Below, in pieces: positions 2,077-18,255 of a DNA stretch of 64,000 nt. A program made the position numbers and the translations under genes. The notes beneath the pieces were generated by a model. It did not search any database, was not told the DNA's origin, and was given only the letters and a program-made list of their open reading frames with translations. The stretch's first letter is position 1; each line of letters opens with the position of its first letter. Location: NCBI GenBank assembly GCA_964457915.1, contig CAYWFM010000001.1:34623-98622 (forward strand), given 5' to 3'. The stretch comes from an uncultured Candidatus Saccharibacteria bacterium (GTDB lineage Bacteria > Patescibacteriota > Minisyncoccia > Phycocordibacterales > SBAW01).

Positions 2077-2080
2077 ATAC

Positions 2081-4509: not shown

Positions 4510-4606
4510 CTTTCCCTTCATGGCGTTAGCGACGGAGGGTGCCCACACTGTACCTTTATTTTCCTATTTTCTCAATATAGCTACCAAAGATGCTATTATT
4601 TTAACA

Positions 4607-5281
4607 ATGGACGAACAGATGCTCCAATACATACGTACACGCAGAAGTGTGCGCGTTCCAGACGACATGATTCGCCAAGAACTTATCGGTGTTGGCTGGA
4701 GCGCACCTATGGTTGATGAGGCGTTCGCATCTCTCACACCCGAGCCGCCCAAGCCCGCACCGCCACCCACCACTCCCGCGCAAACACCACCTCCAGCAAA
4801 CCCAGCCCCCTCTGAACCACCTGCTGCTATTCCTCTCTCACCGGCACCCACTACCCCACCCATTCAACCAGCACCAACCACAGAACAACCAACATCCGCC
4901 GCACAACCCGCACCGGGCGCAAAGCGCATCTTACTCGTTGAAGACGAGAAGGCACTCGCAACTGTTTTGAGTTTAAAGTTGAAAAATGCCGGCTACGACG
5001 TCACGGTGGTTTACAATGGAGATGACGCGCTGCGCATGCTCGGGAGTAGTTTTTTCGACCTCATGTTGGTTGATATTATGATGCCTAAGCGTGATGGGTT
5101 TAGCGTGCTAGAAGAATTAAAAAAGCAGAACAACCAAATCCCTGTTTTTGCCATGTCGAATCTCGGACAAGAAGAAGACATCGCGCGCGTCAAAAGTATG
5201 GGAGTAAAAGAGTACATCGTGAAAGCAGACGCCTCCCCCACTGACATACTCGCTCGAGTAAATTCATTTTTGAAACAATAA
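4607..5281 (+). CDS. Atypical response regulator: small N-terminal domain, Pro/Thr/Ala-rich linker, C-terminal CheY-like receiver
   Basis: C-terminal 120 aa = receiver domain (RILLVEDE...DLMLVDIMMPKRDGF...K). Residues ~50-105 are PEPPKPAPPPTTPAQTPPP... low complexity. The start is chosen at MDEQML (ATG 4607), preceded by a plausible -10 (TATTAT). Stop is 5 bp before pilB. Confidence 0.7.
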   Translation: MDEQMLQYIRTRRSVRVPDDMIRQELIGVGWSAPMVDEAFASLTPEPPKPAPPPTTPAQTPPPANPAPSEPPAAIPLSPAPTTPPIQPAPTTEQPTSAAQPAPGAKRILLVEDEKALATVLSLKLKNAGYDVTVVYNGDDALRMLGSSFFDLMLVDIMMPKRDGFSVLEELKKQNNQIPVFAMSNLGQEEDIARVKSMGVKEYIVKADASPTDILARVNSFLKQ

Positions 5282-5285: not shown

Positions 5286-6989
5286 ATGGCTGACCAACAA
5301 GAACAAAAGACAGAGCTAAAAAAGCCAACAACTAAGCTTGAAGATGCGTTTATTAAAGACGCACTTCTGAAGGGCCAGTATGTGAGCGAGACAGACATGG
5401 ACCATGCACAAGAGTATGCCAAGTCGCACCACTCTCCTATCACCGACTATCTTTTTAATGCAGAACTGCTCAACAAAGGCTTGCTCGGTCACGCTATCGC
5501 TGAGGCGCTTGGCGTAAAGTATGTCGACCTATCTCAAAATCCACCACCAAAAGCAACTATTACTAAATTACCAAAAGCTGTTGCTGAGCAGAGTCGGGTC
5601 ATCCTTATAGATGACACAAACGATATCGTCATAGCCACTGACACCACTGACCCAAAAGCTGCAAGCGACGCAGTCGCCTCTCTATTCCCCGGTAAAAAAA
5701 TCTCTGTCGTGTGGACCTTTGGTGCTGATATGGAGCGGGCTTTTCCTCTCTACAAAGAGGCGCTCGCTGTTCGGTTTACCGAAATTATTAAACGTGAACA
5801 AAAGGTTGCTCCTGAAATTGTCGAACAAATTGTAGAAGACGCCATCTTGCTGCGAGCGTCCGACATCCACCTTGAGCCCCAAGAGACTGAGGTGCTGGTG
5901 CGCTTTCGTATTGACGGCGTCCTTGAAGAAGCGGGGTCACTACCCAAACTGCAATACGAAAATATTCTCAACCGCATCAAGATTGAAGCGCGCCTCCGTA
6001 TCGACGAACACATGCGCAGCCAAGATGGTGCGATTCGCTATCACAAGGGCACCAATGCGGCTGACCTGCGTGTTTCTATTGTCCCCACCGTATCGGGTGA
6101 AAAGGTGGTGATGCGTCTTTTGGGTGAATACCTGCGCACACTCACCCTTGCTGACATTGGTCTCTCCCAAAAACACCAAGCACTTCTTACTGAAATAGCA
6201 AACCGCCCTTACGGCATGATCCTCACCGCGGGGCCAACCGGTTCAGGTAAGACAACAACCCTTTACTCAATTTTGCGTCTACTGAATGATTCGACAGTAA
6301 ACGTTACTACCATCGAAGACCCGGTCGAGTATCGTATCGGCCGTATCAATCAGGTGCAGGTAAATAACGCCACTGGGCTCACCTTTGCGAGCGGCTTGCG
6401 CACTGTTGTGCGTCAAGACCCCGACGTAATACTCGTGGGAGAAATTCGTGATTTTGAGACTGCTGAGATCTCCGTCAACGCAGCTCTCACCGGCCACCTG
6501 CTGCTTTCAACCTTTCACGCCAATGACGCCTCTACCGTGGTGCCTCGCCTCTTAGATATGAAGGTAGAACCATTCCTTCTTGCCTCTACTCTTTCCGTTA
6601 TTATCGCGCAGCGCCTTATTCGTCGCATCTGCGCACACTGCAAAGTATCCGAAACAGTCACCGTCTCCTCTCTTATTGATGAGATGCCCAAACTAAAACC
6701 ATTTCTCAGTGGTACCGAGCTCATTGTGTACAAGGGCAAGGGCTGTGATAAGTGTAACCACACAGGATTTAAAGGACAGTCGGGTATTTTTGAATTTATT
6801 GAAATAACTTCCCGCGTTGAAGATGTTATTCTCAAAGATCCTTCTGCTGAAGCTATAGAGCGTGTGGCACGAGGAGAAGGGACAAAGAGTTTTTTTGAAG
6901 ACGGACTCGACAAAGTGCTCGCCGGCATCACCACCTTTGAAGAACTTCTACGCGTAGCACTCCCACCAAAAATTCTTGAGCAACCATAA
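5286..6989 (+). CDS. pilB: Type IV pilus assembly ATPase PilB (GspE family)
   Basis: 567 aa, Walker A GPTGSGKTTTLY, Asp/His boxes, C-terminal tetracysteine CxxC...CxxC zinc motif, GspE-type N-terminal domain. Confidence 0.9.
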   Translation: MADQQEQKTELKKPTTKLEDAFIKDALLKGQYVSETDMDHAQEYAKSHHSPITDYLFNAELLNKGLLGHAIAEALGVKYVDLSQNPPPKATITKLPKAVAEQSRVILIDDTNDIVIATDTTDPKAASDAVASLFPGKKISVVWTFGADMERAFPLYKEALAVRFTEIIKREQKVAPEIVEQIVEDAILLRASDIHLEPQETEVLVRFRIDGVLEEAGSLPKLQYENILNRIKIEARLRIDEHMRSQDGAIRYHKGTNAADLRVSIVPTVSGEKVVMRLLGEYLRTLTLADIGLSQKHQALLTEIANRPYGMILTAGPTGSGKTTTLYSILRLLNDSTVNVTTIEDPVEYRIGRINQVQVNNATGLTFASGLRTVVRQDPDVILVGEIRDFETAEISVNAALTGHLLLSTFHANDASTVVPRLLDMKVEPFLLASTLSVIIAQRLIRRICAHCKVSETVTVSSLIDEMPKLKPFLSGTELIVYKGKGCDKCNHTGFKGQSGIFEFIEITSRVEDVILKDPSAEAIERVARGEGTKSFFEDGLDKVLAGITTFEELLRVALPPKILEQP

Positions 6990-6991: not shown

Positions 6992-8032
6992 ATGGCAAAA
7001 GAGAACGAATTTTTTCTTGAAAATCTCAGCATCTTGATGCGCTCCTCGCTACCCATACGCGAGGCGGTTTCTACGTTGAAAGAAGAAATTCATGGCAAGA
7101 AAATGCGTCACGCTGTCGCCATCATCGAACAAGAGATAGATGCGGGTGGCAAAATTTCTACTGCCTTACAAAAAAGCAAACTCCTCTCGGAACGTTATGT
7201 TGCCCTCTTGCGACTCGGTGAGGAAACGGGCGAGCTCCAAAAACAAATGGCGCTCGTGGTGGATGAACAAAAAAAAGAGCAGGCGCTTCATTCTAAAATT
7301 CGTGGCGCACTCATCTACCCGGCCATCGTTATTTTTATCACGATATGTGTGGGTATTTTTACCATGTGGTATATCTTCCCCCGCCTGACCGCCGTGTTTG
7401 CTCAAAATGGTGGTCAGCTGCCAATCACCACACGCATGATCATCGCGATGGGTAACTTCCTCACCGAGTGGGGCGTCATTGTTGTGCCGGGTGGATTTGC
7501 TCTCGCTGCCATTCTTATCTATTTTGGTTTTATCTATTCAAAAACGCGTAGCGTTGGTGAGCGCCTACTCTTACATACACCGGTGATGCGAGCTCTTATC
7601 CAAGACCTCGAGCTGGCCCGCTTTGGCTATGTGATGGGCTCACTGCTTCACGCGGGCATTTCAGTACCTCAGGCACTTATCTCGATGCAGGACTCGACCA
7701 CGTTTGTGCTCTATAAACGATTTTATGCTGAAATGTACACCAAGGTGACGGAGGGGGCCTCGCTCTACAAAGCAATCACCCTGTATCCTCAGTACCAACA
7801 ATTTATACCCTCCTATTTAGCACGGCTCATTTCTGCGGGAGAAATGTCTGGCTCATTATCTGAAACATTGAGTGACATTGGTGAAATGTTTGAAGTTAAA
7901 ACACAAAACATCACTCAAAATCTAAGTGTGATGCTCGAGCCCATCATTATTGTGGTTGTTGGTCTCGCGGTTGCTTTTTTGGCCGTCGCCATCATCTCAC
8001 CTATTTATGGGCTCACGACCCAAATTAATTAA
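6992..8032 (+). CDS. pilC: Type IV pilus platform protein PilC (GspF family)
   Basis: 346 aa with duplicated GspF-like cytoplasmic domains separated by TM helices. Starts 3 bp after the pilB stop. Confidence 0.85.
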   Translation: MAKENEFFLENLSILMRSSLPIREAVSTLKEEIHGKKMRHAVAIIEQEIDAGGKISTALQKSKLLSERYVALLRLGEETGELQKQMALVVDEQKKEQALHSKIRGALIYPAIVIFITICVGIFTMWYIFPRLTAVFAQNGGQLPITTRMIIAMGNFLTEWGVIVVPGGFALAAILIYFGFIYSKTRSVGERLLLHTPVMRALIQDLELARFGYVMGSLLHAGISVPQALISMQDSTTFVLYKRFYAEMYTKVTEGASLYKAITLYPQYQQFIPSYLARLISAGEMSGSLSETLSDIGEMFEVKTQNITQNLSVMLEPIIIVVVGLAVAFLAVAIISPIYGLTTQIN

Positions 8033-8194
8033 GGCCGCCGACGCCACCAAAGTACCAACACGCAAACAAGTACCCACACTCCTGCAGCACTTACCCACAG
8101 GAGAGGGTGCGATGTTGTGGCCGGCTCTACTCGCCCCTCTAGGGAACCTGCAAAATTTGGATGTGCCTCGCTCGGAAGTGGTTGAAGTTCCATA

Positions 8195-9580
8195 CTAGTT
8201 ACTGCTCCAGCTTATTTGCTGGTACCCACTCGTTGAGAGGGGAAAGCTTGGCGGAGGACTGTACAAAAGATTTTTATCATACGTGTCGATGGTCGTCGCA
8301 TATCCAGAGGTCAGGGTGTTTTGACTATTAACCCATGACCAAGTCCACTGACCGTATGACATGATGGACCCAAAAATAGTGATGCTTGTCTTGGTATTGC
8401 CTGGGTAGTAAAAGAACTGAGTTGAACCATTTTGAGCGATGAGTGCCGCGTCAATTTCAAGCGCTGAGGGTGCGTTATAGGTGATAACAATATTATTTTG
8501 AGCCAACAAGCCGAGCACCGAGGTGCCATCTTTTGCTGCATACACAATATTTTTAGGGATATATATTGTTGGCGCAGCACTTGCCACATAGGGTAACTTT
8601 GCCGCTGCAACCATTACTCGCCCCTTTACCGTACCTTCAACCCATACGTTGTCTTCTATATATATGATTCCATTTGCTGGAATAGCTGGTGTAGATAGTA
8701 ATTGACGATTCTTGTAGTCTGTATACTCATTATGAGCGACACCATACACATCCCAACCGGTTGGATGTGAGGTGAGGTTTGTTACCTTATAGATACTAAC
8801 CGTACCGTTGCTATTAAACACGAGTGAATATCCCTGCGCGCTTGAGGGAGACAGGTAGATACCACCGCCCTGTGCTGTTGCTTTGAGCGAGGAGAGGTTG
8901 GCGGTCAGCGCTGAAAAATCTACCGCGGGCACAGGAAACTGCCAAAAGCTCTGTACTGCTGGTGATGCCCCTCCCCATACGCCGTTTTGCCACGACTCAC
9001 AGGGAGACCCTTGTGATCCTGGACACTTGTAGGTCGACTTTGCAGACATAATGGGTGCATTCCCCACCCCATCGAATCGAATACCATTGTTCGACTGAAG
9101 CTTTCCACTAACTGTTTCGCCAGCACCAATCCAGACAATGTCGTTACTTAAAAATGAAAATTGTGCGAGCGAGGGTATACCATATTGAGCCGTAATGGTG
9201 CGTTTGTTGTTTGGATTTGCACTGGTCCAACCTGTCGACTGTATGGTGACAATGGTCGACCCTACCACCGGTGGCGTGATCGTAAGACTGTACTGCCCTA
9301 CCACCTTTCCTGTGGTGAGATCAGTATACGAGTGCACATATGGTCCTGCGGTGGTGGTACCATCTCGATAATCAACCGGGAAGTGTGCCAGATGCCACTG
9401 GTAGTAGTTAATTCCCGCTTCTGCAATCTGAAAGGCTTGTTCATGATTAATACGCCCCGGCCCCATCTGTACCTCTTTGCGTACCACATCGATAAGCGGC
9501 ACGATCATGAGCGAACAGATAAACAACAGCATGAGCATGCCCACAAGCGCATCTCCCCGTATGTAGCGCGTCTGTTTCAT
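8195..9580 (-). CDS. Large pilus-associated protein with N-terminal membrane anchor, non-canonical prepilin-like N-terminus
   Basis: 461 aa. The N-terminus MKQTRYIRG|DALVGMLMLLF resembles a class-III leader but lacks Glu+5. The rest is Ser/Thr/Gly/Asn-rich beta-type sequence. Last gene of the pilin operon (1-nt overlap with the upstream gene). Confidence 0.5.
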   Translation of the reverse strand: MKQTRYIRGDALVGMLMLLFICSLMIVPLIDVVRKEVQMGPGRINHEQAFQIAEAGINYYQWHLAHFPVDYRDGTTTAGPYVHSYTDLTTGKVVGQYSLTITPPVVGSTIVTIQSTGWTSANPNNKRTITAQYGIPSLAQFSFLSNDIVWIGAGETVSGKLQSNNGIRFDGVGNAPIMSAKSTYKCPGSQGSPCESWQNGVWGGASPAVQSFWQFPVPAVDFSALTANLSSLKATAQGGGIYLSPSSAQGYSLVFNSNGTVSIYKVTNLTSHPTGWDVYGVAHNEYTDYKNRQLLSTPAIPANGIIYIEDNVWVEGTVKGRVMVAAAKLPYVASAAPTIYIPKNIVYAAKDGTSVLGLLAQNNIVITYNAPSALEIDAALIAQNGSTQFFYYPGNTKTSITIFGSIMSYGQWTWSWVNSQNTLTSGYATTIDTYDKNLLYSPPPSFPLSTSGYQQISWSSN

Positions 9581-10191
9581 TAGTTGCCGAGGTTAGTCTT
9601 AAGGTTGCGTAGTGTAGCTCCCGCAGTCATGGTAAACGTACTTGTTCCGGTGCGACTATCTTTCGTGAATACCGTTAGCGCCATTTGCACGTATGTCACC
9701 TGCGCAATCGGTACAGGCTGTGCAAGCGGTATGGATGTTGTGGCGCCGGTATAATTCCCATCATAGTACGTAAAAATAGTCGCCGTGCTCGAAGCAAGTG
9801 GCGTGAGCGATGAGATTTGTTCAGATGCAACAGGATACGTGGGTGGTGTGCCAATTGGTCGGGTTACCCCTTTATACAACACTCCACTTGAGGTGAAGTA
9901 CCTTACTTTTTGTATCGAACCATCATAACTTCCATACGGGGTATAAAAAATAATTGCCGTAGAACTTGCTAGAGTGAGTGGGTACGAACCATCTCCCGCG
10001 GTTGTTGCATCACGAATTTCGTTAAGAAAGGCGTTAGTCACTATACGGGTCTTATCAATAGTACCAATAGCAAGTGGCTGTTGGGCCGTTAGCGAAAAGA
10101 TTTTTGCTATAGTCCCCACTGCCGCAGCCATAATAAGAAGGCCAACCGCCAGAGCAATGAGAAATTCTACTAGAGTGACGCCGCGGTTCAT
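9580..10191 (-). CDS. Type IV (pseudo)pilin, prepilin-peptidase substrate
   Basis: 203 aa. MNRG|VTLVEFLIALAVGLLI = short basic leader, Gly-1, Glu+5, hydrophobic N-terminal helix. Confidence 0.7.
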   Translation of the reverse strand: MNRGVTLVEFLIALAVGLLIMAAAVGTIAKIFSLTAQQPLAIGTIDKTRIVTNAFLNEIRDATTAGDGSYPLTLASSTAIIFYTPYGSYDGSIQKVRYFTSSGVLYKGVTRPIGTPPTYPVASEQISSLTPLASSTATIFTYYDGNYTGATTSIPLAQPVPIAQVTYVQMALTVFTKDSRTGTSTFTMTAGATLRNLKTNLGN

Positions 10192-11957
10192 TGGCTTAAT
10201 TGTACGCGCAACGTTTGCTGCCCCGACAGGGTGATGTTGCTAATGGTCTGCGTTTGGTATCCAGGCATCTGCACCTCGACCTGATAGCCCCCCGTTTGGG
10301 TTATGCCAGCAAACATAGATTGCCCGGGAGTATAACAGCCAGACATGTAGTTAATGGTGACGTTACTCAATACCGGCGTGGTGGTGGTGCTGGTGGTGGT
10401 GAGTAGCGCTTTGTAGCGTAGGTATCGCTTATTGTTGAGCACGCTATGTATGGTGGTTCCGGGGACTGTGTAGTATGTGCTCGCTGTTCCATCAGGGCCT
10501 ACAAAATTCCATGTTGCATTATCAGTATTTGCCGCTAGTTGAAACATGACCGAGGTAGATGCGCTTTGTGATTGTGGGTTCCAGGTAAGTGTCGAGAATG
10601 TTGTTGAAGCGGTACCGGTATCAAACGTCGATGATATGAGTGACCCTGAAGACACGTACGCACCACTCACCTGCGCGAGACGCACTCCATTTGGTTGCGT
10701 TTGTGTATCGATAGTACCGCTGTCGCTTGCGTACTTATTTGCTGCCAAAAAATCTTCTTGCCCAGAGCCTCCGGTCCAGTCTTCCTGGTACAAGATACTC
10801 CCGGCGGTGAGCTTGCTTGCGCTGTATCCGATACCGCTGTTTCGAAGAGTCACCGTGGCACCCTCAACCGAGTTACCCGTCGATGCGTCAGTCACCACAA
10901 CCAGTAAACTATTACTGGTAGCGGGCCCGAGCATAAGCGTTGACTGTTGCGCTGTATTGGGAAGTAAATTTATCTGCTGCAGCGGCGAAGAACCATACAA
11001 CATATAACTCCCCTTTGGTGTTGGGGTGTACGTATCCCATTCGATGGGATTTATGACAATCTTCCCGACACCATCGGTGGTGAAAGTCTGATCAAATTTT
11101 AAAACACCGGGTGTCCCTATAAGTTTCGCACCCTTCAATTGGATATCAGCTCCTGAAACAGGGCGACAGGTCTGGTCAACCGCCTTGAGTGTCAGAGCAC
11201 TTAATTGATCAATAGAGAAGCTAACCGAGGTGCTTTGTCCCACCAAAACAGTAGCGTCAGGTTTTGTAGGATTTGGGTTAGGCCCCGTGCTCGGGTAGGT
11301 TTGGTCGGTGGAGTAACCACTGTTTAAGGCAACGATGTGGTAGCTGTTCGCGCTCGCTTTCACTCCAACCTCGGTCCACTTCCCCTGGGCATCCGTGGTA
11401 CGCACCACATCCAGTGCCGGCACAATGGTTGGGTTTGTAATATGTACCGTTGCGCCAGGGACGGGCTGTCCGATAGCGTTTATAACACTCAAGACTAAAG
11501 CACCGCCAGTCGCCATATTTTCAATACCTTTTGGTACAACCGTGGTTACGAATGATGACTGATGGTTGGTAGTAAGATTTTTTATATATAGTTTGACCTG
11601 CTTGTAGTCCGTATCGGTGGGACCGGTGCCATCAGCGGGGTCATCAACATAGGCAACCGTGTAGTAGATTTGGTATTTTGCGCCATTATAGGCAACCTCC
11701 TGTGGATTTACGAGATCTGGTAATGGCCCTGAAGGATTACCCGTCTTGGTGCCCACTTGGGCGTATGGCAAATTGCGGGCAATTTCAATGTAGGATTGCG
11801 ACAGTGCAGCAACCGCCGCCGTATCTCGATAGGTGCGAAGACCCCGGATCGCAGCGGTACCTAGTGCAATAATAGAAAAAACGAGAAGGGCAAAAATAGC
11901 GAGCGATATGAGTGTTTCAACAAGCGTAAACCCTCGCACCATTCTGCGCGCATGCAT
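10188..11957 (-). CDS. Giant type IV pilin-like protein (589 aa) with class-III signal peptide
   Basis: MHARRMVRG|FTLVETLISLAIFALLVF prepilin motif with Glu+5, followed by ~550 aa of Thr/Ser/Gly-rich, probably Ig/CarboxypepD-like beta domains. 4-bp overlap with the next pilin gene. Confidence 0.65.
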   Translation of the reverse strand: MHARRMVRGFTLVETLISLAIFALLVFSIIALGTAAIRGLRTYRDTAAVAALSQSYIEIARNLPYAQVGTKTGNPSGPLPDLVNPQEVAYNGAKYQIYYTVAYVDDPADGTGPTDTDYKQVKLYIKNLTTNHQSSFVTTVVPKGIENMATGGALVLSVINAIGQPVPGATVHITNPTIVPALDVVRTTDAQGKWTEVGVKASANSYHIVALNSGYSTDQTYPSTGPNPNPTKPDATVLVGQSTSVSFSIDQLSALTLKAVDQTCRPVSGADIQLKGAKLIGTPGVLKFDQTFTTDGVGKIVINPIEWDTYTPTPKGSYMLYGSSPLQQINLLPNTAQQSTLMLGPATSNSLLVVVTDASTGNSVEGATVTLRNSGIGYSASKLTAGSILYQEDWTGGSGQEDFLAANKYASDSGTIDTQTQPNGVRLAQVSGAYVSSGSLISSTFDTGTASTTFSTLTWNPQSQSASTSVMFQLAANTDNATWNFVGPDGTASTYYTVPGTTIHSVLNNKRYLRYKALLTTTSTTTTPVLSNVTINYMSGCYTPGQSMFAGITQTGGYQVEVQMPGYQTQTISNITLSGQQTLRVQLSQ

Positions 11958-11978
11958 AAAAAAATGATAGCACGCGGT

Positions 11979-13622
11979 TTACGAAGCGGTTTGTACCAAA
12001 AGCGGAATATCAACGAAAAACTGCGTCCCCTTCCCCACCCCTTCAGACGCCGCAGTGATAACGCCATGATGTGACTCCACAAACGTTTTCACAATAAAGA
12101 GCCCTAGGCCCGAACCATTGTTGTTTACCTCTTGTGCATTGTCGCCACGGGTAAATTTTGAGAACATACGCTTGAGCGTTTCTTCACTCATCCCGATACC
12201 GGTGTCGCGTATTTCTACGTGAGCCATTGAGGTGCCTGGCATTTTTCGTAACATGATCGAAATATTGCCCTTGGGGGTATATTTTGTTGCGTTGTCGATA
12301 ATGTTGCTGAAAACTTGTTTTAGTTTTCCACCATCGCCCCAAACCATAACCTTCTCTTCAGGGACGGACACTTCAATTTGCAATCCTTTCTTTTCAACAC
12401 CGGGGCGCAACTCGCTACCGACGCTGGTGATAAGCGCCGCCAAATCAACAGGGCCAAACTGGTACTGCATCCTCCCCTGCTCAATGCGAGATACATCAAG
12501 GTAATCGTTGATCATCACTGCCATACCGGAACTTTCATCAATGAGCGTCTTCATGGCGGCTTTCAGGTTGTCCGGTAGCGGCCCATAGGTGCCATCCATA
12601 ATGGAGTCGATACTCCAGCGAATAGCGGTAAGAGGTGTTCGCAGTTGGTGTGACGCAAAAGAAAGGAACTCGCTTTTCTCTTTGTCGATTTCGCGCAACC
12701 GCGCATTGGACACCTCCAGCTCCCGCTCTTGCTTTTCAATAAGCTCGCGCTGCTTCACCTCTCGATTAACGCTACGTACCAGGAAATAGCCAAACATGAG
12801 CATAAAAACTAAGACAAACCCATCCAATATTGCAAAATTTATATCTGGCTCTGCAAATAATTTTCCAAAAAGGACAATATCGATGGTCGCAATCAAAGAT
12901 TGGGTGAGGAGAATTTTTATATCAAATAAATGATATTGCGTAATAGCGTACGCAGTTATTCCTAAGAAACCAAGCACATATAAAGGGGTAAATTGTAAAA
13001 AAAATGTGGTATTGAAAAAGAGCAATGGAATTAAAATGGTCAAAATGATAAGTCCCAAAAGAAAAATAATACCAAGAAGCATGGTGCCCAACTGTCGCCT
13101 CGTTTCACTCTCTGCACGAAAATATGACGTCGTTAAAAAATAAAGAGAGAGGATTGCAAAAATCGTAGAAATAACAACAAATGGCAACAGCCCGACTCCT
13201 GCCTGAGGCTCACTGAGTCCTTCTATTTGTTGGACTCCAACAAAAGCATACGGTGAGAGATTGAGGCCCATCATAAGCAGTGTAGCCGCTATAGAGATAT
13301 ACAAACCTTTTTTCGGAAGGGTTATGGTTTGAGAAGGCATAATATAGCCCAAGAGAAATAGGGAAAAACTCATTGGCGCAGCAAAAAAGATTCCCAAACG
13401 ATGTAGCGAAAGAGACGCGCTATTCAGCTCTGGTATACGCACTAAAAAAGTATCCAGCATCCATAGCGTGGTAAAAAAACTTAGGACACAGAAGATTCTA
13501 TTGGTCGCACTATTGGGATTATTTCTGTACACCAAAAATCCCATAATAGTAGAACCGACCAATGCCAACACAAAAGCAACGAGAGAAAGAGGTGAATCGT
13601 ATGGAAGAGTAATATGAATCAT
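11979..13622 (-). CDS. Membrane-bound sensor histidine kinase (multi-TM N-terminus, HisKA + HATPase_c)
   Basis: H-box SHQLRTPLTAIRWS, N/G1/G2 boxes (DNATKYT, DTGIGM, GSGLGL). ~8 predicted TM helices in the first 300 aa. The start is set at MIHITL, giving an ATGA overlap with the upstream nitroreductase-fold gene. Confidence 0.85.
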   Translation of the reverse strand: MIHITLPYDSPLSLVAFVLALVGSTIMGFLVYRNNPNSATNRIFCVLSFFTTLWMLDTFLVRIPELNSASLSLHRLGIFFAAPMSFSLFLLGYIMPSQTITLPKKGLYISIAATLLMMGLNLSPYAFVGVQQIEGLSEPQAGVGLLPFVVISTIFAILSLYFLTTSYFRAESETRRQLGTMLLGIIFLLGLIILTILIPLLFFNTTFFLQFTPLYVLGFLGITAYAITQYHLFDIKILLTQSLIATIDIVLFGKLFAEPDINFAILDGFVLVFMLMFGYFLVRSVNREVKQRELIEKQERELEVSNARLREIDKEKSEFLSFASHQLRTPLTAIRWSIDSIMDGTYGPLPDNLKAAMKTLIDESSGMAVMINDYLDVSRIEQGRMQYQFGPVDLAALITSVGSELRPGVEKKGLQIEVSVPEEKVMVWGDGGKLKQVFSNIIDNATKYTPKGNISIMLRKMPGTSMAHVEIRDTGIGMSEETLKRMFSKFTRGDNAQEVNNNGSGLGLFIVKTFVESHHGVITAASEGVGKGTQFFVDIPLLVQTAS

Positions 13623-14683
13623 ATGTGGACTTTTCGAACGTGTGGATGCTGTTTGTGTGCATGTGCAGATGGAGCTGGCCCATATCCCACACGACAAATC
13701 ATTGAGATACGGCGATTCGGTGGCACCATTGCCAATCTCTCTAAACGTTCTTCAGTACTCTTTATAAGCAGGGCGTGAGCCTCAGAAAAAGCTTGTGCAT
13801 CACCTCCTCGTACTCTCTGTCCAAGATACGGCATTGCTCCTAATGGGTGCACGGAAAGACCGTGAGTCATCGCGGTAAGCCATACCCTCTCCAGGGCTCG
13901 GCCTGTATTAAAAAATGATACATTGCTTTGTTCGGAAATAGTGAACACCAGTATAGCGGAACAAGCTGCATAGGTTATCTGAGATTGTTTTGAAATGAAA
14001 CGAGAAAACCCAAAACGATTCAAAAACGAAACCACCTTCCAAGAAGGAAGTACGTACCGAAACATAAGCGCAACAGGAGGGGGAAACTCCATTGTTTTAA
14101 TGTATAGACCTGGATCTTGCTGCTCTTCTTTTACATTCCAGCGTATCTTGGTGAACAAAAAATCATGCAGTGTTTTATTTTCCATGAGCAGGCGTTCATT
14201 AACACTTATGCATGCAGCCATCTCTTTAATGATTTTAGGATCTTCAACACACGTCATCAAAACATCTTCTGGAAGAATTGTGAGTTGAGTTATGGCTCGG
14301 AGAGATTCTGGCGTAAGGGGTGTCCTTTTATAGAGCTTGCGATTGGTTGTTCTCTGTTTGATTGCTTGAGTTATTTCATTTGAACTCTTTTCAGCCGGAC
14401 TAAATATAAGATGAGCTACGCAATCCTTTTCTTTTTGAAACGCTAGCACCTCCACCGAGTATCCTTCTTGTTTAGCAAGTAGTGCTATATTTTCAACGAG
14501 TGCGCCGTGCCCAAGATACGATCCTCTCTCTTTATAATTATAAAGGGTGTCATCTGCGCCAGTTTTGTTATAAATCATTAAACCATCCTCAAGAATCTCA
14601 AATTCCCATGGTTGTGCGTTATCACCGGAAGGAGCGTTCACCGCTATCGGTAAAATTTTTTCAATAATTTCTTTTACGATCAC
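13619..14683 (-). CDS. Nitroreductase-superfamily protein, double-length (354 aa; SagB/McbC-like or Acg-like tandem nitroreductase fold)
   Basis: N-terminal APSGDNAQPWEFEI matches the PSxxNxQPW signature of the FMN nitroreductase fold, and an RxxxRK(L/F) motif lies further in. The length is about twice a canonical nitroreductase. Confidence 0.55.
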   Translation of the reverse strand: MIVKEIIEKILPIAVNAPSGDNAQPWEFEILEDGLMIYNKTGADDTLYNYKERGSYLGHGALVENIALLAKQEGYSVEVLAFQKEKDCVAHLIFSPAEKSSNEITQAIKQRTTNRKLYKRTPLTPESLRAITQLTILPEDVLMTCVEDPKIIKEMAACISVNERLLMENKTLHDFLFTKIRWNVKEEQQDPGLYIKTMEFPPPVALMFRYVLPSWKVVSFLNRFGFSRFISKQSQITYAACSAILVFTISEQSNVSFFNTGRALERVWLTAMTHGLSVHPLGAMPYLGQRVRGGDAQAFSEAHALLIKSTEERLERLAMVPPNRRISMICRVGYGPAPSAHAHKQHPHVRKVHI

Positions 14684-14685
14684 GC

Positions 14686-16122
14686 TTGTATTATACTATC
14701 AACAATCCCTCCATGAATCAGTTTTCCCGGGCAGAGCAAGAAGCCATCGAACTTTTTAGACACGCGGCCGCAGGAGTCCCTGCGTACAAAGATTTTTTAC
14801 GCAAACACAAGATAAACCCTGACAAAATACTAACGTTTGAAGACTTTAAAAAAATACCCCCAACAAACAAGCCTGATTACATTAGCGCTTATTCTTTACA
14901 AGAACTAAGCTGGGACGGAACTTTGGCCCACTCACCCTACATATCATCAAGTTCTGGATCTACAGGAATACCCTTTTATTGGCCTCGGGGTAATTATCAA
15001 AATAAAATTGTTGGTAAAATTTTTCAAAACATATTTGAAAAAATATTTTACACCAAAGAAGGTTCGACTCTTTTTGTGAACCTTTTCGCGCTCGGCACTT
15101 GGATTGCCGGGCTCGAATTTTATAATGGGGCAAAATACGTTGCCGACACGGGAAATGCTATAAACATAGTTACGCCTGGTATAGAAAAAAAGGTCGCTCT
15201 TGACGCTATTGTTCGTCTGGGACCCCTTTACGATCGCATCGTCTTAGCTGGCTATCCCCCGTTTGTTAAAGATGTTATCGACTCTGGGTTTACCGTTGGA
15301 ATTGATTGGTCAAAATATAATGTATACCTCCTTACCGGAGGAGAAGCGTTCAGTGAACTCTGGAGAAATCATGTACATAGAAAATTGGGGGCACCAGAAG
15401 CTTCACAAAAAATAATTAATATCTATGGTATGGCAGAAACCGGAGTGGTCGGACACGAAACACCTCTCACCATTTTACTTAGAAAAAATTTACAAACTCT
15501 AGGAACCATATATCAACCATCGACGCCTGGAACTGGCGCACCAGCACTATATGCGTACAACCCTCTGGTGCGTTTTTTTGAAGTAGGAGATGATCAATCT
15601 CTCTTGCTTACGTCTCGAGCAGGTTTGCCTCTTATCAGATACAACACTCGCGATCAGGGAGGTCTCATATCAAGTAAAGAGATCCGTGCAATGGCCACAG
15701 TTGTACCAGCAACACGAGAGTGCCTGTCTGCGTGGCGCACACCTGTTGTGTATTTACATGGGCGCAAAGATTTGTCCCTTTCTTTTTACGCACTCAATGT
15801 ATATATAGAAAACATCAAACACTGCTTTGAGAGCTACGCTGAAGCAAAAAGTTTTTCAGGCCTGTTTACTATGCGAGTAGCAAATTCTAGAAATTTTGAC
15901 CAACAATTTCATATTGTTGCCGAATTAGCACTTGAAACAAAACAGCACGACACAAAACAACTAGTTTTACACATATTAAAAACTCTTCCCACGATAAACA
16001 GCGAGTATGGAAAACTTTTGCAGTCCCTTGGGAAACGCGCACACCCTAAAGTCAGCTTAGTACCATACGGTAAATTAGATACGATACCGGGGAAAAAACA
16101 TCGGTGGGTTCGCAAAGGGTAA
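14686..16122 (+). CDS. PaaK/coenzyme F390 synthetase-like adenylate-forming enzyme
   Basis: 478 aa. SSSGSTGIPFYWPR at ~90 matches the (S/T)SGTTGxP AMP-binding P-loop position of the phenylacetate-CoA ligase family. Overall length and architecture fit PaaK/CapK-like. Confidence 0.6.
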   Translation: MYYTINNPSMNQFSRAEQEAIELFRHAAAGVPAYKDFLRKHKINPDKILTFEDFKKIPPTNKPDYISAYSLQELSWDGTLAHSPYISSSSGSTGIPFYWPRGNYQNKIVGKIFQNIFEKIFYTKEGSTLFVNLFALGTWIAGLEFYNGAKYVADTGNAINIVTPGIEKKVALDAIVRLGPLYDRIVLAGYPPFVKDVIDSGFTVGIDWSKYNVYLLTGGEAFSELWRNHVHRKLGAPEASQKIINIYGMAETGVVGHETPLTILLRKNLQTLGTIYQPSTPGTGAPALYAYNPLVRFFEVGDDQSLLLTSRAGLPLIRYNTRDQGGLISSKEIRAMATVVPATRECLSAWRTPVVYLHGRKDLSLSFYALNVYIENIKHCFESYAEAKSFSGLFTMRVANSRNFDQQFHIVAELALETKQHDTKQLVLHILKTLPTINSEYGKLLQSLGKRAHPKVSLVPYGKLDTIPGKKHRWVRKG

Positions 16123-17157
16123 CTACTTATCGAGTCTCTCTGATGGCTGCAGTGCCAGGTCACAACCCATCACATAACGACCCGAGGGCAGCGATGACCC
16201 CAGAGCAAGCGAACGAACTGCGTACGCCACAGCAACACCAGCGAGTGATGCGGCCGTCCCAAGTTGGGCTATCCCAGAAAGGGTTTTACCCACCTCTTGT
16301 ACTGACTTTTCTTGTCGCTCAGTGAATAAAGAAGGATCTATAATTTGATTTGCAAGAGAAACAAATCGCTCGCGAGACATGTTTTTGAGGTTAGATGGAA
16401 CTCGTTTAATACGACCATGAAAAATAGGTTGTTTTGTATCGCAGTCAAAGCGTTCAACATCAAGAATTACACTATCGCCATTATCGGTAGCCATGAGAAC
16501 AGGAATCCCTGCCTTTTTACAAGCAAATCGTACGGCAAACTTCATCGCAATATCATCCATCTCATCAACCAACACATCGAGATTATTGATGAACTCCGGC
16601 AATGATGCAATTTCAACACCCCTATCCCATGATTCTATTTTTAGGAACGGGTCTATCTCCCAAGCAGCTCGCGCCGCTATAGTAACTTTAGGCAACCCAA
16701 CATCAAGCACTGTCCCGCGAATTCGATTAAGGTTAGTAATTTCCAAAATATCTGGGTCGGCAATTCGTAACATTTTTGGACCACCTGTCGAAACTAACGA
16801 TTGCAGTACTGCAGAACCAACAGAAAGCCCCAATATGCCCACCTTACTTGCACGATATACTAGCTGTTCATCGGGCAAGATGAGGTTTCGATTACGGGCT
16901 GTACGTAAACGAAAATAAATCGACTCCTCAGGTAGACAAACTGCCACATTCCTCCACGGGAAATACACCCACACACAAGGACGCTCTCGTACTTGCTTTC
17001 GAACATACTTCTCCAATACAGCCGCGTCGTGTCTCCCTTTTGCTATATGTGGGTGTTCAACAAAATACAATTCAGTGAAAGCACTTTTCCGCGTATCAAT
17101 TTTTTTACAGGTACGCGGAAGTTTTTGAGAGGCGGTAAAAAAAATTGGTTTTTGCAC
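16123..17157 (-). CDS. E1-like (ThiF/MoeB/MccB family) adenylyltransferase with ~100-aa N-terminal extra domain
   Basis: Rossmann GxGxxG (ILGLSVGSAVLQSL), ITNLNRI (ThiF xxNLNRQ motif) and D-x-x-D (VLVDEMDD) are present. No CxxC zinc motif seen. The N-terminal 100 aa is unrelated to the E1 fold. Confidence 0.75.
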   Translation of the reverse strand: MQKPIFFTASQKLPRTCKKIDTRKSAFTELYFVEHPHIAKGRHDAAVLEKYVRKQVRERPCVWVYFPWRNVAVCLPEESIYFRLRTARNRNLILPDEQLVYRASKVGILGLSVGSAVLQSLVSTGGPKMLRIADPDILEITNLNRIRGTVLDVGLPKVTIAARAAWEIDPFLKIESWDRGVEIASLPEFINNLDVLVDEMDDIAMKFAVRFACKKAGIPVLMATDNGDSVILDVERFDCDTKQPIFHGRIKRVPSNLKNMSRERFVSLANQIIDPSLFTERQEKSVQEVGKTLSGIAQLGTAASLAGVAVAYAVRSLALGSSLPSGRYVMGCDLALQPSERLDK

Positions 17158-17162: not shown

Positions 17163-17558
17163 TTATCCCCTTCCAAGTGCTTCGCGGATCTTGTCTACTA
17201 CAATGACCGGCGTCGTGTCTGCCTTAACCAAGTAGAACACCGGTTCGTATACCTCGATCGCTTTAATTATCTGGTTACTGTCGGGGGTAAGGTTGGTGAG
17301 CATGATGACGGGCACCTGCGCACCATAGGGAATGTTTTTGCGCAGCTGCTGTAGCATAGAGAGCCCGTCGGTCCCTGGCATCATGATATCGAGCACAATA
17401 ACTGCCGGGTGTTTGCGCAACGCAAACTCAAGCCCTTCAGCTCCATCGCCTGCTTCGATGACCTCATAGCCGGCATCTCGCATTTTTTGAGTGAGGAGGC
17501 CACGCAATGTTTTTTCGTCTTCGACGATGAGTATGGTTTGTCCCTGTGTCTGTGCCAT
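17163..17558 (-). CDS. Stand-alone CheY-like response regulator receiver (no output domain)
   Basis: 131 aa. ILIVEDE...VLDIMMPGTDG...K conserved receiver residues. 5 bp upstream of the E1-like gene in the same orientation. Confidence 0.85.
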   Translation of the reverse strand: MAQTQGQTILIVEDEKTLRGLLTQKMRDAGYEVIEAGDGAEGLEFALRKHPAVIVLDIMMPGTDGLSMLQQLRKNIPYGAQVPVIMLTNLTPDSNQIIKAIEVYEPVFYLVKADTTPVIVVDKIREALGRG

Positions 17559-17617
17559 ATATAAAGTATACCGTGGTTTTGAAAGTAAAGAAAAAGGTGG
17601 GTATATGAATATGTCTC

Positions 17618-17730: not shown

Positions 17731-18255
17731 ATGACTAGACTTCTGAAACAAAAATACTGGCATGAACTTTTTGAGGCCGGCGTCGCACTCAAAGCATTTA
17801 ACAGTGTGTGGGAGACCGCTGGTGGAGTCCTGCTGTTAACCGGGCTCCATTCGTGGATATCTCGAGGGTTTGTGTTTATTACGAGTAGTACCTTTTTTGG
17901 TGACAGGCACGAGTTTATCTTTCGTCTCCTAGATAGCCAGCTCCACCATCTTAACGTCGTATCAACACGCACCTTCGTGGGAGCATATCTCCTCTTTCAT
18001 GGCATCATGAATGCCTTTTTAGCATACAATCTCTACCGCAATCGTCTCTGGGCCTACCCTACCATGATCGCGTTTTCTTCTATCTTTTTTGTCTATCAAG
18101 TATTTCGGCTCTTCCACACCCACTCACTCATGCTCCTTGCGGTGAGTGTGTTTGATATTGTGTTTATTCTTCTCACGTGGCACGAGTGGCGCCATCAAAC
18201 ACGCAAACGTCAGCGCGCAGTAGAGCCCACCGGTGCTGAAGATTCAAACAGATAG
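17731..18255 (+). CDS. Hypothetical integral membrane protein (4 TM)
   Basis: Hydrophobic helices (GGVLLLTGLHSW, FVGAYLLFHGIM, AYPTMIAFSSIFFVY). No recognisable motif. Confidence 0.45.
   Translation: MTRLLKQKYWHELFEAGVALKAFNSVWETAGGVLLLTGLHSWISRGFVFITSSTFFGDRHEFIFRLLDSQLHHLNVVSTRTFVGAYLLFHGIMNAFLAYNLYRNRLWAYPTMIAFSSIFFVYQVFRLFHTHSLMLLAVSVFDIVFILLTWHEWRHQTRKRQRAVEPTGAEDSNR

What the first reader, a model, noticed from the sequence alone, without database searches (positions are those of the whole stretch)
8195..13622. PilS-like arrangement: multi-TM histidine kinase immediately upstream of an operon of three class-III-signal proteins, two of them giant
The HK stop (11979) is 21 bp from the start of a 589-aa protein with a textbook prepilin leader (MHARRMVRG|FTLVE, Glu+5). 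That gene overlaps by 4 bp a 203-aa pilin (MNRG|VTLVEF), which overlaps by 1 bp a 461-aa protein whose N-terminus (MKQTRYIRG|DALVG) is prepilin-like but lacks Glu+5. Pilins of ~600 aa are far larger than typical major pilins. They resemble minor-pilin/adhesin hybrids, which would be relevant to host-cell attachment in an epibiont.

The operon converges on pilB-pilC, with about 160 bp between the pilC stop (8032) and the stop of the 8195-9580 gene and no obvious terminator. The HK N-terminus (about 8 TM) is reminiscent of PilS, yet the only nearby regulator is a receiver-only protein.
Basis: partly seen in the sequence, partly recalled or inferred. Interest (0 to 1): 0.55.

Follow-up and report, generated by a model that had tools for sequence, protein, structure and literature searches.

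The report
Conserved CPR pilus-tip gene module

Summary
On the minus strand, a multi-TM histidine kinase is followed after 21 bp by three overlapping genes of 589, 203 and 461 aa. The first two carry class-III (prepilin) signals; the third is prepilin-like but lacks Glu+5.

By fold, profile comparison and gene order, the trio looks like a GspI-GspJ-GspK-type core minor-pilin (tip) set:
- P1: GspI-like head plus transthyretin/Ig-like and jelly-roll domains.
- P2: GspJ-like.
- P3: GspK-like head plus an ice-binding-type beta-solenoid, the same combination as the Thermus competence tip pilin ComZ.

The "empty" 160-bp gap holds a conserved fourth gene, P4 (54 aa).

P1-P4 are syntenic in about 80 genomes of Paceibacteria and related CPR lineages, usually beside pilB/pilC and sometimes pilM/N/O. 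P3 is more conserved than the PilB ATPase.

RuvB places the organism in Paceibacteria, not Saccharibacteria.

The kinase belongs to the HisKA_7TM family, and the only partners nearby are receiver-only proteins. "PilS-like" fails as family membership, although a 7TM kinase recurs next to this cluster in two different gene orders.

Function (adhesion or DNA capture) is inferred only. I rate it a new variant of a known kind, of moderate interest.

The parts
10188..11957 (-). P1: 589-aa modular minor pilin. It has a class-III signal (MHARRMVRG|FTLVE, Glu+5), a GspI-like pilin head (about aa 12-140), two to three transthyretin/CarboxypepD_reg/CnaB-like Ig domains and a jelly-roll-like domain.
   Evidence: - Pfam N_methyl and CarboxypepD_reg.
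- NCBIfam N-terminal hits to gspI and ComGE.
- AF2 model with pLDDT 77.7.
- More than 1500 full-length homologues at 50-92% identity.
9580..10191 (-). P2: 203-aa GspJ-like minor pilin (MNRG|VTLVE, Glu+5).
   Evidence: - N_methyl in 43/43 family members and Glu+5 in 43/43.
- hhalign of the family profile against E. coli GspJ: probability 95.8%, E 7e-9, 108 columns reaching into the globular domain. Against GspG, GspH and GspI only the N-terminal helix region aligns (25-52 columns).
- Similar size to GspJ (203 vs 195 aa) and the same middle position in the operon.
- No structure was predicted.
8195..9580 (-). P3: 461-aa GspK/PilX/ComZ-like capping pilin (MKQTRYIRG|DALVG, no Glu+5). It has a long alpha1 helix (aa 8-66), a four-strand pilin sheet (aa 81-133) and an ice-binding-type beta-solenoid (about aa 240-432).
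   Evidence: - AF2 model with pLDDT 67; the solenoid region scores 80-95.
- PilX_N in 19/40 homologues; the window protein scores E 0.073.
- No sequence match to any PDB chain.
- More than 2500 homologues in the 90%-cluster database, and 340 clusters at 50% identity with E<=1e-30.
8029..8193 (-). P4: 54-aa conserved small membrane protein. It carries an N-terminal LQPxP...PN motif, a C-terminal TM helix and a basic tail (RRRP). Its ATG lies 1 nt after the P3 stop, and its stop overlaps the pilC stop by 4 nt.
   Evidence: - ORF and sequence; it was called as a gene in L001.
- An ORF sits in the same position in nearly all of the ~80 loci. Leu-Gln is invariant and the two Pro are >=90% conserved in 42 aligned members.
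- Close relatives (L002, L003, L005) keep the ORF, motif, TM helix and basic tail despite sequence divergence.
- No Pfam family.
11979..13622 (-). Sensor histidine kinase: HisKA_7TM membrane domain + HisKA + HATPase_c, 547 aa from ATG 13622. It is translationally coupled (ATGA) to the upstream nitroreductase-like gene, and its stop lies 21 nt before P1.
   Evidence: - Pfam PF16927 33.6 bits (cutoff 28.6), HisKA and HATPase_c.
- All NCBIfam equivalog hits fall far below their cutoffs, and PilS is not among the 25 families shown.
- Junction sequences.
- The same kinase type abuts the pil cluster in other lineages.
4520..5281 (+). Receiver-only response regulator (RR253) immediately upstream of pilB, with a 4-nt gap. 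It has a small N-terminal domain, a Pro-rich linker and a receiver domain, and no output domain.
   Evidence: - Pfam Response_reg only.
- The RR253-pilB-pilC order is kept in all 7 window-clade loci.
5286..6989 (+). PilB-type assembly ATPase (MshEN + T2SSE).
   Evidence: Pfam T2SSE E 1e-116; TIGR02538 at 467 bits, below the 675.65 equivalog cutoff.
6992..8032 (+). PilC/GspF-type platform protein. At 346 aa it is shorter than the 406-407-aa PilC found next to the trio in other lineages.
   Evidence: Pfam T2SSF in two copies; comparison with the other loci.
17163..17558 (-). Second receiver-only response regulator (RR131), 3.5 kb upstream and on the same strand as the HK. A receiver/DUF2127 pair recurs at the distal end of the pil cluster in Staskawiczbacteria-type loci.
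   Evidence: Pfam Response_reg only; L025 gene order; proximity table.
17731..18255 (+). DUF2127 membrane protein next to RR131.
   Evidence: Pfam PF09900; the same neighbour pair is seen in the L025-type locus.

Best explanation
Genes 8029-11957(-) form a four-gene module, P1-P2-P3-P4. I propose that it encodes the priming and tip complex of a type IV pilus (T4P) in a Paceibacteria (CPR) bacterium.

Proposed mechanism, by analogy with GspI-GspJ-GspK and PilV-W-X (established knowledge: Korotkov & Hol 2008, 3CI0):
- P3 has no Glu5 and carries a bulky beta-solenoid, so it cannot sit inside the fibre and caps it.
- P1 (GspI-like head) and P2 (GspJ-like) pack under P3 through their N-terminal helices.
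- This trimer nucleates polymerisation of a major pilin that is encoded elsewhere, on the PilC platform and driven by PilB.
- The assembled tip displays two ligand-binding modules: the P3 solenoid, and the P1 Ig-stalk with its jelly roll.
- P4 is a small N-out/C-in membrane protein with an invariant LQPxP motif. It is a lineage-specific accessory factor of unknown role.

The HisKA_7TM kinase is in the same transcription unit. Together with the receiver-only regulators (RR253 fused into the pilB operon, and RR131) it probably forms a dedicated phosphorelay. That relay would act on the pilus machine post-translationally, in the style of CheY/PilG, rather than through a PilR-type transcription factor.

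Shown here: the gene anatomy, class-III signals, fold and profile similarities, synteny and conservation. Inferred: complex formation, tip location, prepilin processing, the ligand, and the kinase-to-regulator-to-PilB wiring.
For: 1. Prepilin signals. P1 and P2 pass N_methyl/TIGR02532. These are the only two strict class-III motifs in the window.
2. GspI-J-K assignment.
   - P2 profile against GspJ: hhalign 95.8% over 108 columns, versus helix-region-only matches (25-52 columns) to GspG, GspH and GspI.
   - Gene order and overlapping junctions match E. coli gspI-J-K.
4. Synteny. P1-P2-P3 sit together in every locus whose contig covers all three, among about 80 genome loci. They lie next to pilB-pilC, either colinear or convergent. 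In Staskawiczbacteria-type loci the order is HK-pilB-pilC-P1-P2-P3-P4-pilM-N-O-x-RR-DUF2127.
5. Constraint. Median pairwise identity across 28 loci outside the window clade is P3 63.6%, PilB 57.2%, P1 56.4%, P2 46.3% and PilC 39.1%.
6. Kinase link.
   - A 7TM kinase lies directly upstream of P1 in 4/4 window-clade loci with enough flank.
   - A kinase lies within about 600 bp upstream of pilB in 6/9 colinear loci with at least 2.9 kb of flank.
   - Of those six, three pass PF16927, two have the same multi-TM build, and one (L019) is a GAF-type kinase with a single TM.
   - The kinase stop is 21 nt from P1, and RR253 ends 4 nt before pilB.
Against: - The models rest on shallow, low-diversity alignments (40 sequences at >=50-63% identity). 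P3 has mean pLDDT 67 and pTM 0.56, and residues 134-225 and 433-461 are unreliable.
- No sequence-level similarity links P3 to GspK or ComZ. P1 is not specific for GspI by profile, because GspJ scores higher.
- P2 was never modelled.
- No PilD, major pilin, PilM/N/O or PilT was found in the 64-kb window, so processing and fibre assembly cannot be confirmed for this genome.
- The adjacent PilB/PilC pair is only 34-43% / 25-33% identical to the pair next to the trio in other lineages. It may therefore belong to another system, and a second PilB-like gene lies at 32958-34685.
- The kinase is absent from most loci (about 45 with multi-kb flanks), so it is not an obligate part of the module.
- 10 of 40 P1 homologues lack Glu5.
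Confidence: 0.7

Rival explanations
1. This is a PilS-like autoregulatory arrangement. The multi-TM kinase would sense the membrane pool of pilins and control transcription of the pilin operon, as PilS-PilR does for pilA in Pseudomonas.
For: - The kinase has a purely membrane-embedded sensor region with no sizeable extracytoplasmic domain, and it sits 21 nt upstream of the pilin genes.
- 7TM kinases recur beside this cluster in two different gene orders.
- Intramembrane sensing of pilin helices would be compatible with that architecture (inference).
Against: - The sensor domain belongs to HisKA_7TM (PF16927), not the PilS module.
- PilS is not among the 25 best NCBIfam hits shown, all of which fall far below their cutoffs.
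- No PilR-like sigma54 activator or any DNA-binding response regulator is in the window. Both nearby regulators are receiver-only.
- The adjacent genes are minor pilins, not the major pilin.
- The kinase lies inside the same operon rather than in a separate regulatory unit, and it is missing from most loci that carry the module.
Confidence: 0.12
2. This is a competence-type pilus. The module would be the extracellular DNA receptor of a DNA-uptake pilus, with P3 acting like Thermus ComZ and the P1 head like PilA2, feeding ComEC for nucleotide scavenging. This is a more specific version of the best explanation.
For: - P3 reproduces the ComZ domain pair, a GspK-like head plus an ice-binding-type solenoid.
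- The tip proteins are more conserved than PilB across lineages that probably have different hosts, which fits an invariant ligand such as DNA.
- CPR mostly lack nucleotide synthesis. ComEC is found in 86% of CPR genomes but ComEA in only 31%, which the authors read as suggesting another DNA-binding mechanism (PMC6744442).
Against: - There is no sequence similarity to ComZ, and fold similarity does not transfer DNA binding.
- ComZ's DNA-binding lysines cannot be mapped onto P3.
- No comEC, comEA or dprA lies in the window. In L082, ComEC is about 7 kb away and not in the operon.
- In TM7x, T4P-2 mutants kept wild-type competence (PMC11623550).
- The Ig and jelly-roll domains of P1 look more like glycan or adhesin modules.
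Confidence: 0.22
3. P1 and P3 are not pilins at all. They would be ordinary secreted or membrane-anchored surface proteins or enzymes that merely keep an N-terminal TM helix, and the pilin-like leaders would be fortuitous.
For: - The window P3 fails the Pfam thresholds for N_methyl and PilX_N.
- No PilD lies in the window.
- Beta-solenoids are common in polysaccharide lyases and adhesins, and CarboxypepD_reg domains are common in surface proteins.
Against: - P1 and P2 pass the curated N_methyl cutoffs.
- Both predicted N-terminal domains have a 50-60-residue alpha1 helix followed by a four-strand sheet, and they match GspI and GspK.
- Gly-1 is invariant in P3.
- Co-location with P2 and the pil assembly genes is strict across about 80 genomes.
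- No catalytic family was detected.
Confidence: 0.05

Closest known systems
GspI-GspJ-GspK pseudopilus tip complex of type II secretion (ETEC, PDB 3CI0), and the orthologous T4aP core minor pilins PilV-PilW-PilX
   Same: - Three consecutive, overlapping genes in the same order.
- The presumed role is to nucleate and cap the fibre.
   Different: - No GspH/FimU gene lies in the module.
- The I-like subunit carries about 450 extra residues (Ig-like and jelly-roll domains).
- The extra domain of the K-like subunit is a beta-solenoid, not the alpha-helical insert of GspK.
- A fourth small membrane protein (P4) is part of the module.
- The host is presumed to be a monoderm CPR bacterium without a secretin.
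- There is no detectable sequence similarity for P3.
ComZ-PilA2 competence pilus tip of Thermus thermophilus (PDB 6QVI, 6QVF; PMC6561018)
   Same: - P3 combines a GspK-like pilin domain with an ice-binding-protein-type triangular beta-solenoid, the pair of similarities reported for ComZ.
- ComZ is also not predicted to be a PilD substrate.
- ComZ's partner is a GspI-like pilin.
   Different: - No sequence similarity is detectable.
- The solenoid is shorter (about 190 vs about 380 residues).
- The insertion topology could not be verified on the model.
- DNA binding is untested.
- The organism is a CPR bacterium, and the GspI-like partner is itself a large modular pilin.
Modular minor pilins of Streptococcus sanguinis T4P (PilB with a vWA module, PilC with a lectin module; PMC8179133)
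   Same: A pilin moiety with grafted adhesive or binding modules, in a monoderm T4P. This explains the 'giant pilins'.
   Different: The grafted modules differ: transthyretin/CnaB-like Ig domains, a jelly roll and a beta-solenoid here. There is no homology beyond the N-terminal helix.
Saccharibacteria (TM7x) T4P-1/T4P-2 minor pilins PilV/W/X; PilX1 carries a jelly roll and PilX2 a beta-propeller (PMC11623550)
   Same: - CPR T4P with large tip-candidate minor pilins that lack a predicted PilD signal.
- Pseudopilin-like core minor pilins.
   Different: - That study found CPR pilins poorly conserved, typically 10-25% query coverage across phyla. P1 and P3 here are 50-72% identical over their full length across many lineages.
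- The accessory domains differ.
- The window organism is Paceibacteria, not Saccharibacteria.
PilS-PilR two-component control of pilin expression, and PilG/PilH-type CheY-like control of the pilus motor
   Same: A membrane-embedded kinase is genetically linked to pilus genes. Single-domain receivers lie next to pilB, as with PilG/PilH-type regulators that act on the motor.
   Different: - The sensor is HisKA_7TM, not the PilS module.
- There is no PilR, no evidence of sigma54 involvement, and no CheA/Chp system.
- The wiring is entirely inferred.

Membership tests
Type IV pilin / pseudopilin (class-III signal proteins): P1 and P2 | Short basic leader ending in Gly, followed by a hydrophobic N-terminal helix with Glu at +5 (N_methyl / TIGR02532) | tested here: met
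   P1 scores 25.7 bits and P2 22.8 bits against a cutoff of 21.2; TIGR02532 is also above its cutoff. Glu+5 is present in 43/43 P2 and 30/40 P1 homologues.
Type IV pilin / pseudopilin (class-III signal proteins): P1 and P2 | Cleavage and N-methylation by a prepilin peptidase (PilD), and incorporation into a filament | not testable with these tools
   No Peptidase_A24 gene or GxGDxK motif was found in the window. PilD is reported to be widespread in CPR (PMC6744442). The rest of this genome could not be searched.
GspI / PilV class: P1 head | Small alpha-beta pilin fold that superposes on GspI | tested here: met
GspJ / PilW class: P2 | Homology to GspJ beyond the N-terminal helix; about 200 aa; encoded between the I and K genes | tested here: met
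   hhalign 95.8%, E 7e-9, 108 columns, against 25-52 columns (N-terminal helix region) for GspG, GspH and GspI. Sizes are 203 vs 195 aa. The template was a single sequence and the fold was not modelled.
GspK / PilX class: P3 | Prepilin-like N-terminus that lacks Glu5 | tested here: met
   Gly-1 in 35/35 members; +5 is Tyr/Leu/Gly/Met/Thr, never Glu.
GspK / PilX class: P3 | Pilin fold matching GspK, with an additional domain | tested here: met
GspK / PilX class: P3 | Sequence-family membership (Pfam PilX_N PF14341, or a GspK profile) | tested here: inconclusive
   The window protein scores E 0.073, 13.5 bits against a cutoff of 25.5. 19 of 40 homologues hit, best 1.8e-6. hhalign against E. coli GspK finds nothing.
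ComZ-type tip competence pilin | GspK-like pilin domain combined with an ice-binding-protein-type beta-solenoid | tested here: met
ComZ-type tip competence pilin | Sequence homology to ComZ | tested here: not met
   A profile of 40 P3 homologues finds no PDB chain at E<=10.
ComZ-type tip competence pilin | DNA binding and a requirement for natural transformation | not testable with these tools
   This needs biochemistry or genetics.
PilS sensor kinase (PilS-PilR system) | HisKA + HATPase_c transmitter | tested here: met
   Pfam 52.1 and 88.6 bits. This feature is generic to histidine kinases.
PilS sensor kinase (PilS-PilR system) | PilS-type six-TM sensor module, or a PilS family signature | tested here: not met
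   The N-terminus is HisKA_7TM PF16927 (33.6 bits, cutoff 28.6), with about 8 hydropathy peaks. PilS is not among the 25 best NCBIfam hits shown, all of which are far below their cutoffs.
PilS sensor kinase (PilS-PilR system) | Cognate PilR (receiver + sigma54-activator AAA+ + DNA-binding domains) and control of the major pilin gene | tested here: not met
   Only receiver-only proteins are nearby (RR253, RR131). No Sigma54_activat-domain regulator and no major pilin were found among about 50 ORFs scanned. The rest of the genome was not examined.
PilY1-type tip adhesin | C-terminal beta-propeller and/or vWA domain; non-pilin N-terminus | tested here: not met
   No propeller or vWA domain appears in the models or in Pfam for P1 or P3.

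The most novel reading that the evidence does not exclude
The P1-P2-P3(-P4) module would be the conserved extracellular DNA receptor of Paceibacteria-type CPR bacteria. In this reading, a ComZ-like beta-solenoid cap on a retractile or piston-like pilus captures environmental or host DNA for ComEC-dependent nucleotide scavenging. This would fill the gap left by the frequent absence of ComEA. The 7TM kinase and CheY-like receivers would gate the PilB motor.
Probability: 0.2. Interest if true: 0.8.

Novelty: new variant of a known kind. Interest (0 to 1): 0.55.

Why it matters
Type IV pili are thought to be central to how CPR bacteria attach to hosts and acquire DNA. Their pilins have been described as too divergent to compare across lineages.

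This locus shows the opposite for one module. It is a four-gene tip set that is syntenic and 50-70% identical across Paceibacteria, Doudnabacteria and related groups. Its cap protein is more conserved than the PilB motor ATPase, which points to an invariant partner or ligand rather than a host-specific one.

The module offers three things for organisms that mostly cannot be cultured:
- defined, soluble domains that can be expressed and tested (the P3 solenoid and the P1 jelly roll);
- a small unknown accessory protein, P4;
- a candidate minimal signalling circuit of a 7TM kinase plus receiver-only regulators next to pilB.

If the ComZ analogy holds functionally, it would make the long-standing question of how CPR bacteria capture DNA directly testable.

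Tried and rejected
- **Sequence searches against solved structures.** Profiles of P1, P2 and P3 gave only N-terminal-helix matches, and nothing at all for P3. Assignments of the globular domains therefore rest on predicted folds.
- **Profile comparison for P3 and P1.** hhalign of P3 against E. coli GspK found nothing. P1 against GspI was not specific.
- **Pfam and NCBIfam.** They gave no family for the window P3, and Pfam gave none for P4.
- **Other pilus genes in the window.** I looked for PilD, PilT, PilM/N/O, a major pilin and ComEC, using Pfam on about 50 ORFs plus motif regexes. I found only a second orphan PilB-like ATPase.
- **Is the second PilB the ancestral partner of the trio?** No. 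Both window PilBs are about 35-38% identical to the trio-adjacent PilBs of other lineages.
- **Horizontal transfer as the cause of the high P3 conservation.** Not needed. RuvB is 81-85% identical to the same groups and 98% within the genus, where P3 is 84%.
- **'Candidatus Saccharibacteria' record titles.** These titles, on third-party-assembled (TPA) metagenome genomes, are unreliable. One such genome (L005) has RuvB 98% identical to the window, and the window's nearest named RuvB relatives are Kaiserbacteria/Adlerbacteria.
- **AFDB fold search.** The library was unavailable.
- **Literature.** My searches found no description of this module.

Full report
**1. Observation**

The ORF map reproduces the finding. 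On the minus strand lie a histidine kinase (HK, longest ORF 11979-13697), a 589-aa gene (P1, 10188-11957), a 203-aa gene (P2, 9580-10191) and a 461-aa gene (P3, 8195-9580).

- The P1/P2 and P2/P3 junctions overlap by 4 nt and 1 nt.
- The HK stop TAA is 21 nt from the P1 ATG.
- The HK start used by a gene caller on an identical contig is the ATG at 13622, giving 547 aa. It forms an ATGA overlap with the stop of the upstream nitroreductase-like gene. The kinase is therefore embedded in a longer co-directional unit.
- P1 and P2 pass the curated thresholds of Pfam N_methyl and TIGR02532.
- A strict class-III regex over all six frames of the 64-kb window hits only these two places, so the signal is not chance.
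- P3 begins MKQTRYIRG|DALVG and has no Glu+5.
- On the plus strand, a receiver-only regulator (RR253, 4520-5281), pilB (5286-6989) and pilC (6992-8032) converge on the operon. No terminator-like hairpin lies at the junction.

**2. A missed fourth gene**

The ~160 bp between P3 and pilC is not empty.

- A 54-aa ORF (8029-8193, minus strand) starts 1 nt after the P3 stop and ends 4 nt inside pilC. It was called as a gene on the identical contig.
- An ORF in the same position exists in almost all related loci. Most versions are 90-135 aa.
- The typical build is a signal peptide, an LQPxP...PN(I)SGN(V)N motif, a low-complexity spacer, a C-terminal TM helix and a Lys/Arg tail. Leu-Gln is invariant and both prolines are >=90% conserved.
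- The window's close relatives carry short 53-55-aa versions starting MELQP(L/M)P. These have diverged in sequence but keep the ORF, motif, TM helix and basic tail.
- It matches no Pfam family.

I call it P4 and treat the module as four genes.

**3. Who carries it**

- P3 has more than 2500 homologues and P1 more than 1500 in the 90%-cluster database. They are full length at 50-92% identity. Source names include Paceibacterota, Parcubacteria, Doudnabacteria and Minisyncoccota.
- A profile search of the 50%-identity representatives finds 340 clusters at E<=1e-30, mostly 445-530 aa with end-to-end matches.
- A scan of species-representative genomes returned 200 loci, of which 80 were fetched. 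They come from Adlerbacteria, Staskawiczbacteria, Zambryskibacteria, Doudnabacteria and Paceibacterota MAGs.
- The window's RuvB is 81-85% identical to Kaiserbacteria, Adlerbacteria, Paceibacterota and Parcubacteria proteins. The organism is therefore Paceibacteria (Parcubacteria), not Saccharibacteria.
- The 'uncultured Candidatus Saccharibacteria' titles of third-party-assembled (TPA) genomes are unreliable. One such genome shares 98% RuvB identity with the window.

**4. Synteny**

tblastn of the window proteins against the 80 loci shows P1-P2-P3 together wherever the contig allows. There are four arrangements:

- (a) Window clade: [nitroreductase]-HK-P1-P2-P3-P4, convergent with RR253-pilB-pilC.
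- (b) Trio convergent with pilC-pilB, with no kinase.
- (c) Colinear pilB-pilC-P1-P2-P3-P4.
- (d) Trio alone.

A Staskawiczbacteria locus of type (c) reads HK-pilB-pilC-P1-P2-P3-P4-pilM-(PilN-like)-(PilO-like)-x-receiver-DUF2127-ATP synthase. The module is thus part of a T4P machine cluster.

**5. What the proteins are**

*P1.* The AF2 model (pLDDT 77.7) has an alpha1 helix at residues 12-61 and a four-strand sheet, followed by beta-sandwich domains.
- It gives ~130-residue matches to jelly-roll domains of phage nozzle proteins, PNGase and Eph receptors.

*P2.* The family profile aligns to E. coli GspJ with 95.8% probability over 108 columns. This includes VRYFTSSGVLYKGV against VHWYLRNHTLYRAV. 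GspG, GspH and GspI align only in the N-terminal helix region, over 25-52 columns.

*P3.* The model (pLDDT 67, with the solenoid region at 80-95) shows a 59-residue alpha1 helix, a four-strand sheet and a beta-solenoid.
- The ComZ paper reports this same pair of similarities, GspK for the pilin domain and an ice-binding protein for the solenoid. It argues on steric grounds that ComZ must sit at the tip (PMC6561018).
- Glu+5 is present in 43/43 P2 and 30/40 P1 sequences and is absent from all P3 sequences, while Gly-1 is kept in 35/35 P3 sequences. Absence of Glu5 is the known signature of the capping subunit GspK.
- E. coli gspI-gspJ-gspK have the same order and overlapping junctions.

Taken together, the trio is a GspI-J-K-type core minor-pilin set in which the I-like and K-like members are modular.

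**6. Conservation**

Across 28 loci outside the window clade that hold all five genes, median pairwise identity is as follows:

| Protein | Median pairwise identity |
|---|---|
| P3 | 63.6% |
| PilB | 57.2% |
| P1 | 56.4% |
| P2 | 46.3% |
| PilC | 39.1% |

P3 exceeds PilB in 263 of 378 pairs. A surface-exposed tip pilin that is more conserved than the motor ATPase is unusual. It also contrasts with the report that CPR pilins share only 10-25% coverage across phyla (PMC11623550). Horizontal transfer is not needed to explain it, because RuvB remains more conserved than P3 at every distance. The pattern suggests many fixed protein contacts, an invariant ligand, or both.

**7. The kinase**

- Its sensor region is HisKA_7TM (PF16927), followed by HisKA and HATPase_c. 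PilS is not among the 25 NCBIfam hits shown, and every equivalog hit is far below its cutoff.
- No DNA-binding or sigma54-type regulator was found in the window. RR253, fused into the pilB operon, and RR131 (17163-17558) are receiver-only, with intact phospho-acceptor motifs read from the sequence.
- The kinase is nevertheless not a random neighbour.
  - A 7TM kinase lies within 100 bp upstream of P1 in all four window-clade loci with enough flank.
  - A kinase lies within ~600 bp upstream of pilB in six of nine colinear loci. L026, L036 and L043 pass PF16927, L025 and L030 have the same build, and L019 is a GAF-type kinase. A receiver is sometimes interposed, or lies at the far end next to DUF2127.
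  - The window also has a receiver/DUF2127 pair.
  - About 45 other loci with multi-kb flanks have no kinase.

I conclude that a 7TM-kinase/receiver-only phosphorelay is an optional but recurrent accessory of this pilus cluster. It probably acts on the machine (PilB) rather than on a promoter. This last step is inference.

**8. What could not be settled**

- The window has no PilD, major pilin, PilM/N/O, PilT or ComEC. PilD is reported as widespread in CPR, but this genome could not be searched.
- The adjacent PilB/PilC pair is only 34-43% / 25-33% identical to the pair beside the trio in other lineages. A second PilB-like gene lies at 32958-34685. Which motor serves this tip complex is therefore open.
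- The ligand is unknown. The ComZ-like cap and the extreme conservation favour DNA. The Ig-stalk and jelly roll of P1 favour a glycan or cell surface. The two need not be exclusive.

**9. Verdict**

The 'giant modular minor pilins' and 'PilX-like third protein' readings are supported and sharpened. 'PilS-like', 'Saccharibacteria' and 'PilY1-like' are not supported.

The module is a new variant of a known kind: a GspIJK/ComZ-type pilus tip complex with added modules and a fourth gene. It is widespread in CPR databases under generic annotations, and I found no description of it in the literature I could search.

Noticed in passing
window 8029-8193 (-): A conserved 54-aa gene (P4) fills the supposed intergenic gap between P3 and pilC. 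It has an LQPxP...PN motif, a C-terminal TM helix and a basic tail. It is present after P3 in nearly all related loci and matches no known family.
   Followed up: yes
window 13619-17157 (nitroreductase-like 13619-14683 -, AMP-ligase-like 14686-16122 +, ThiF-like 16123-17157 -): A nitroreductase-family, adenylating-enzyme-like and ThiF/E1-like gene trio sits directly upstream of the kinase, with an ATGA overlap. The trio is conserved in the same place in relatives L005 and L007. It is reminiscent of a peptide- or cofactor-modifying cassette. Its link to the kinase or the pilus genes is unknown.
   Followed up: partly
window 32958-34685 (+): A second, orphan PilB/GspE-type ATPase (575 aa, MshEN + T2SSE) lies between tsaE and ruvB. 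It is 40% identical to the pilB at 5286-6989.
   Followed up: partly
window 45546-58779 (-): A long co-directional operon carries monoderm type IV secretion hallmarks: a PrgI-family protein at 51697-52146, a VirB4/TraG P-loop ATPase at 49195-51036 and a weak TrbC/VirB2-like hit at 46770-47534. It also holds 799-aa and 947-aa proteins with no family. This resembles the reported Patescibacteria T4SS.
   Followed up: no
window 139-2920 (-): Haem-copper oxidase subunits I and II are present. Subunit II carries the COX_ARM motif typical of quinol oxidases. This is a respiratory or oxygen-scavenging enzyme in a CPR genome.
   Followed up: no
window 17163-18255, and L025 14186-14993: A receiver-only regulator and a DUF2127 membrane protein are neighbours both in the window and at the distal end of the Staskawiczbacteria pil cluster. 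This suggests the pair belongs to the same signalling unit.
   Followed up: partly
window 41129-43794 (-), 44011-45540 (+): dnaN and dnaA lie on the minus strand, with rnpA-like, yidC-like and jag-like genes on the plus strand. The chromosomal replication origin region is therefore probably around 43.8-44.3 kb. The sign of the GC skew changes near 42 kb.
   Followed up: no
loci L037, L041, L045, L069, L076: In some Doudnabacteria-like loci the P2 (GspJ-like) gene is expanded to about 390-490 aa. The middle subunit can therefore also become modular.
   Followed up: no
P1 and P3 alignments (A2, A1): There are two invariant cysteines in P1 (C264, C541) and two conserved cysteines in P3 (C186 invariant, C194 >=90%). 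These may form disulfides, which is relevant to the CPR-enriched thiol-disulfide oxidoreductase noted in PMC6744442.
   Followed up: no
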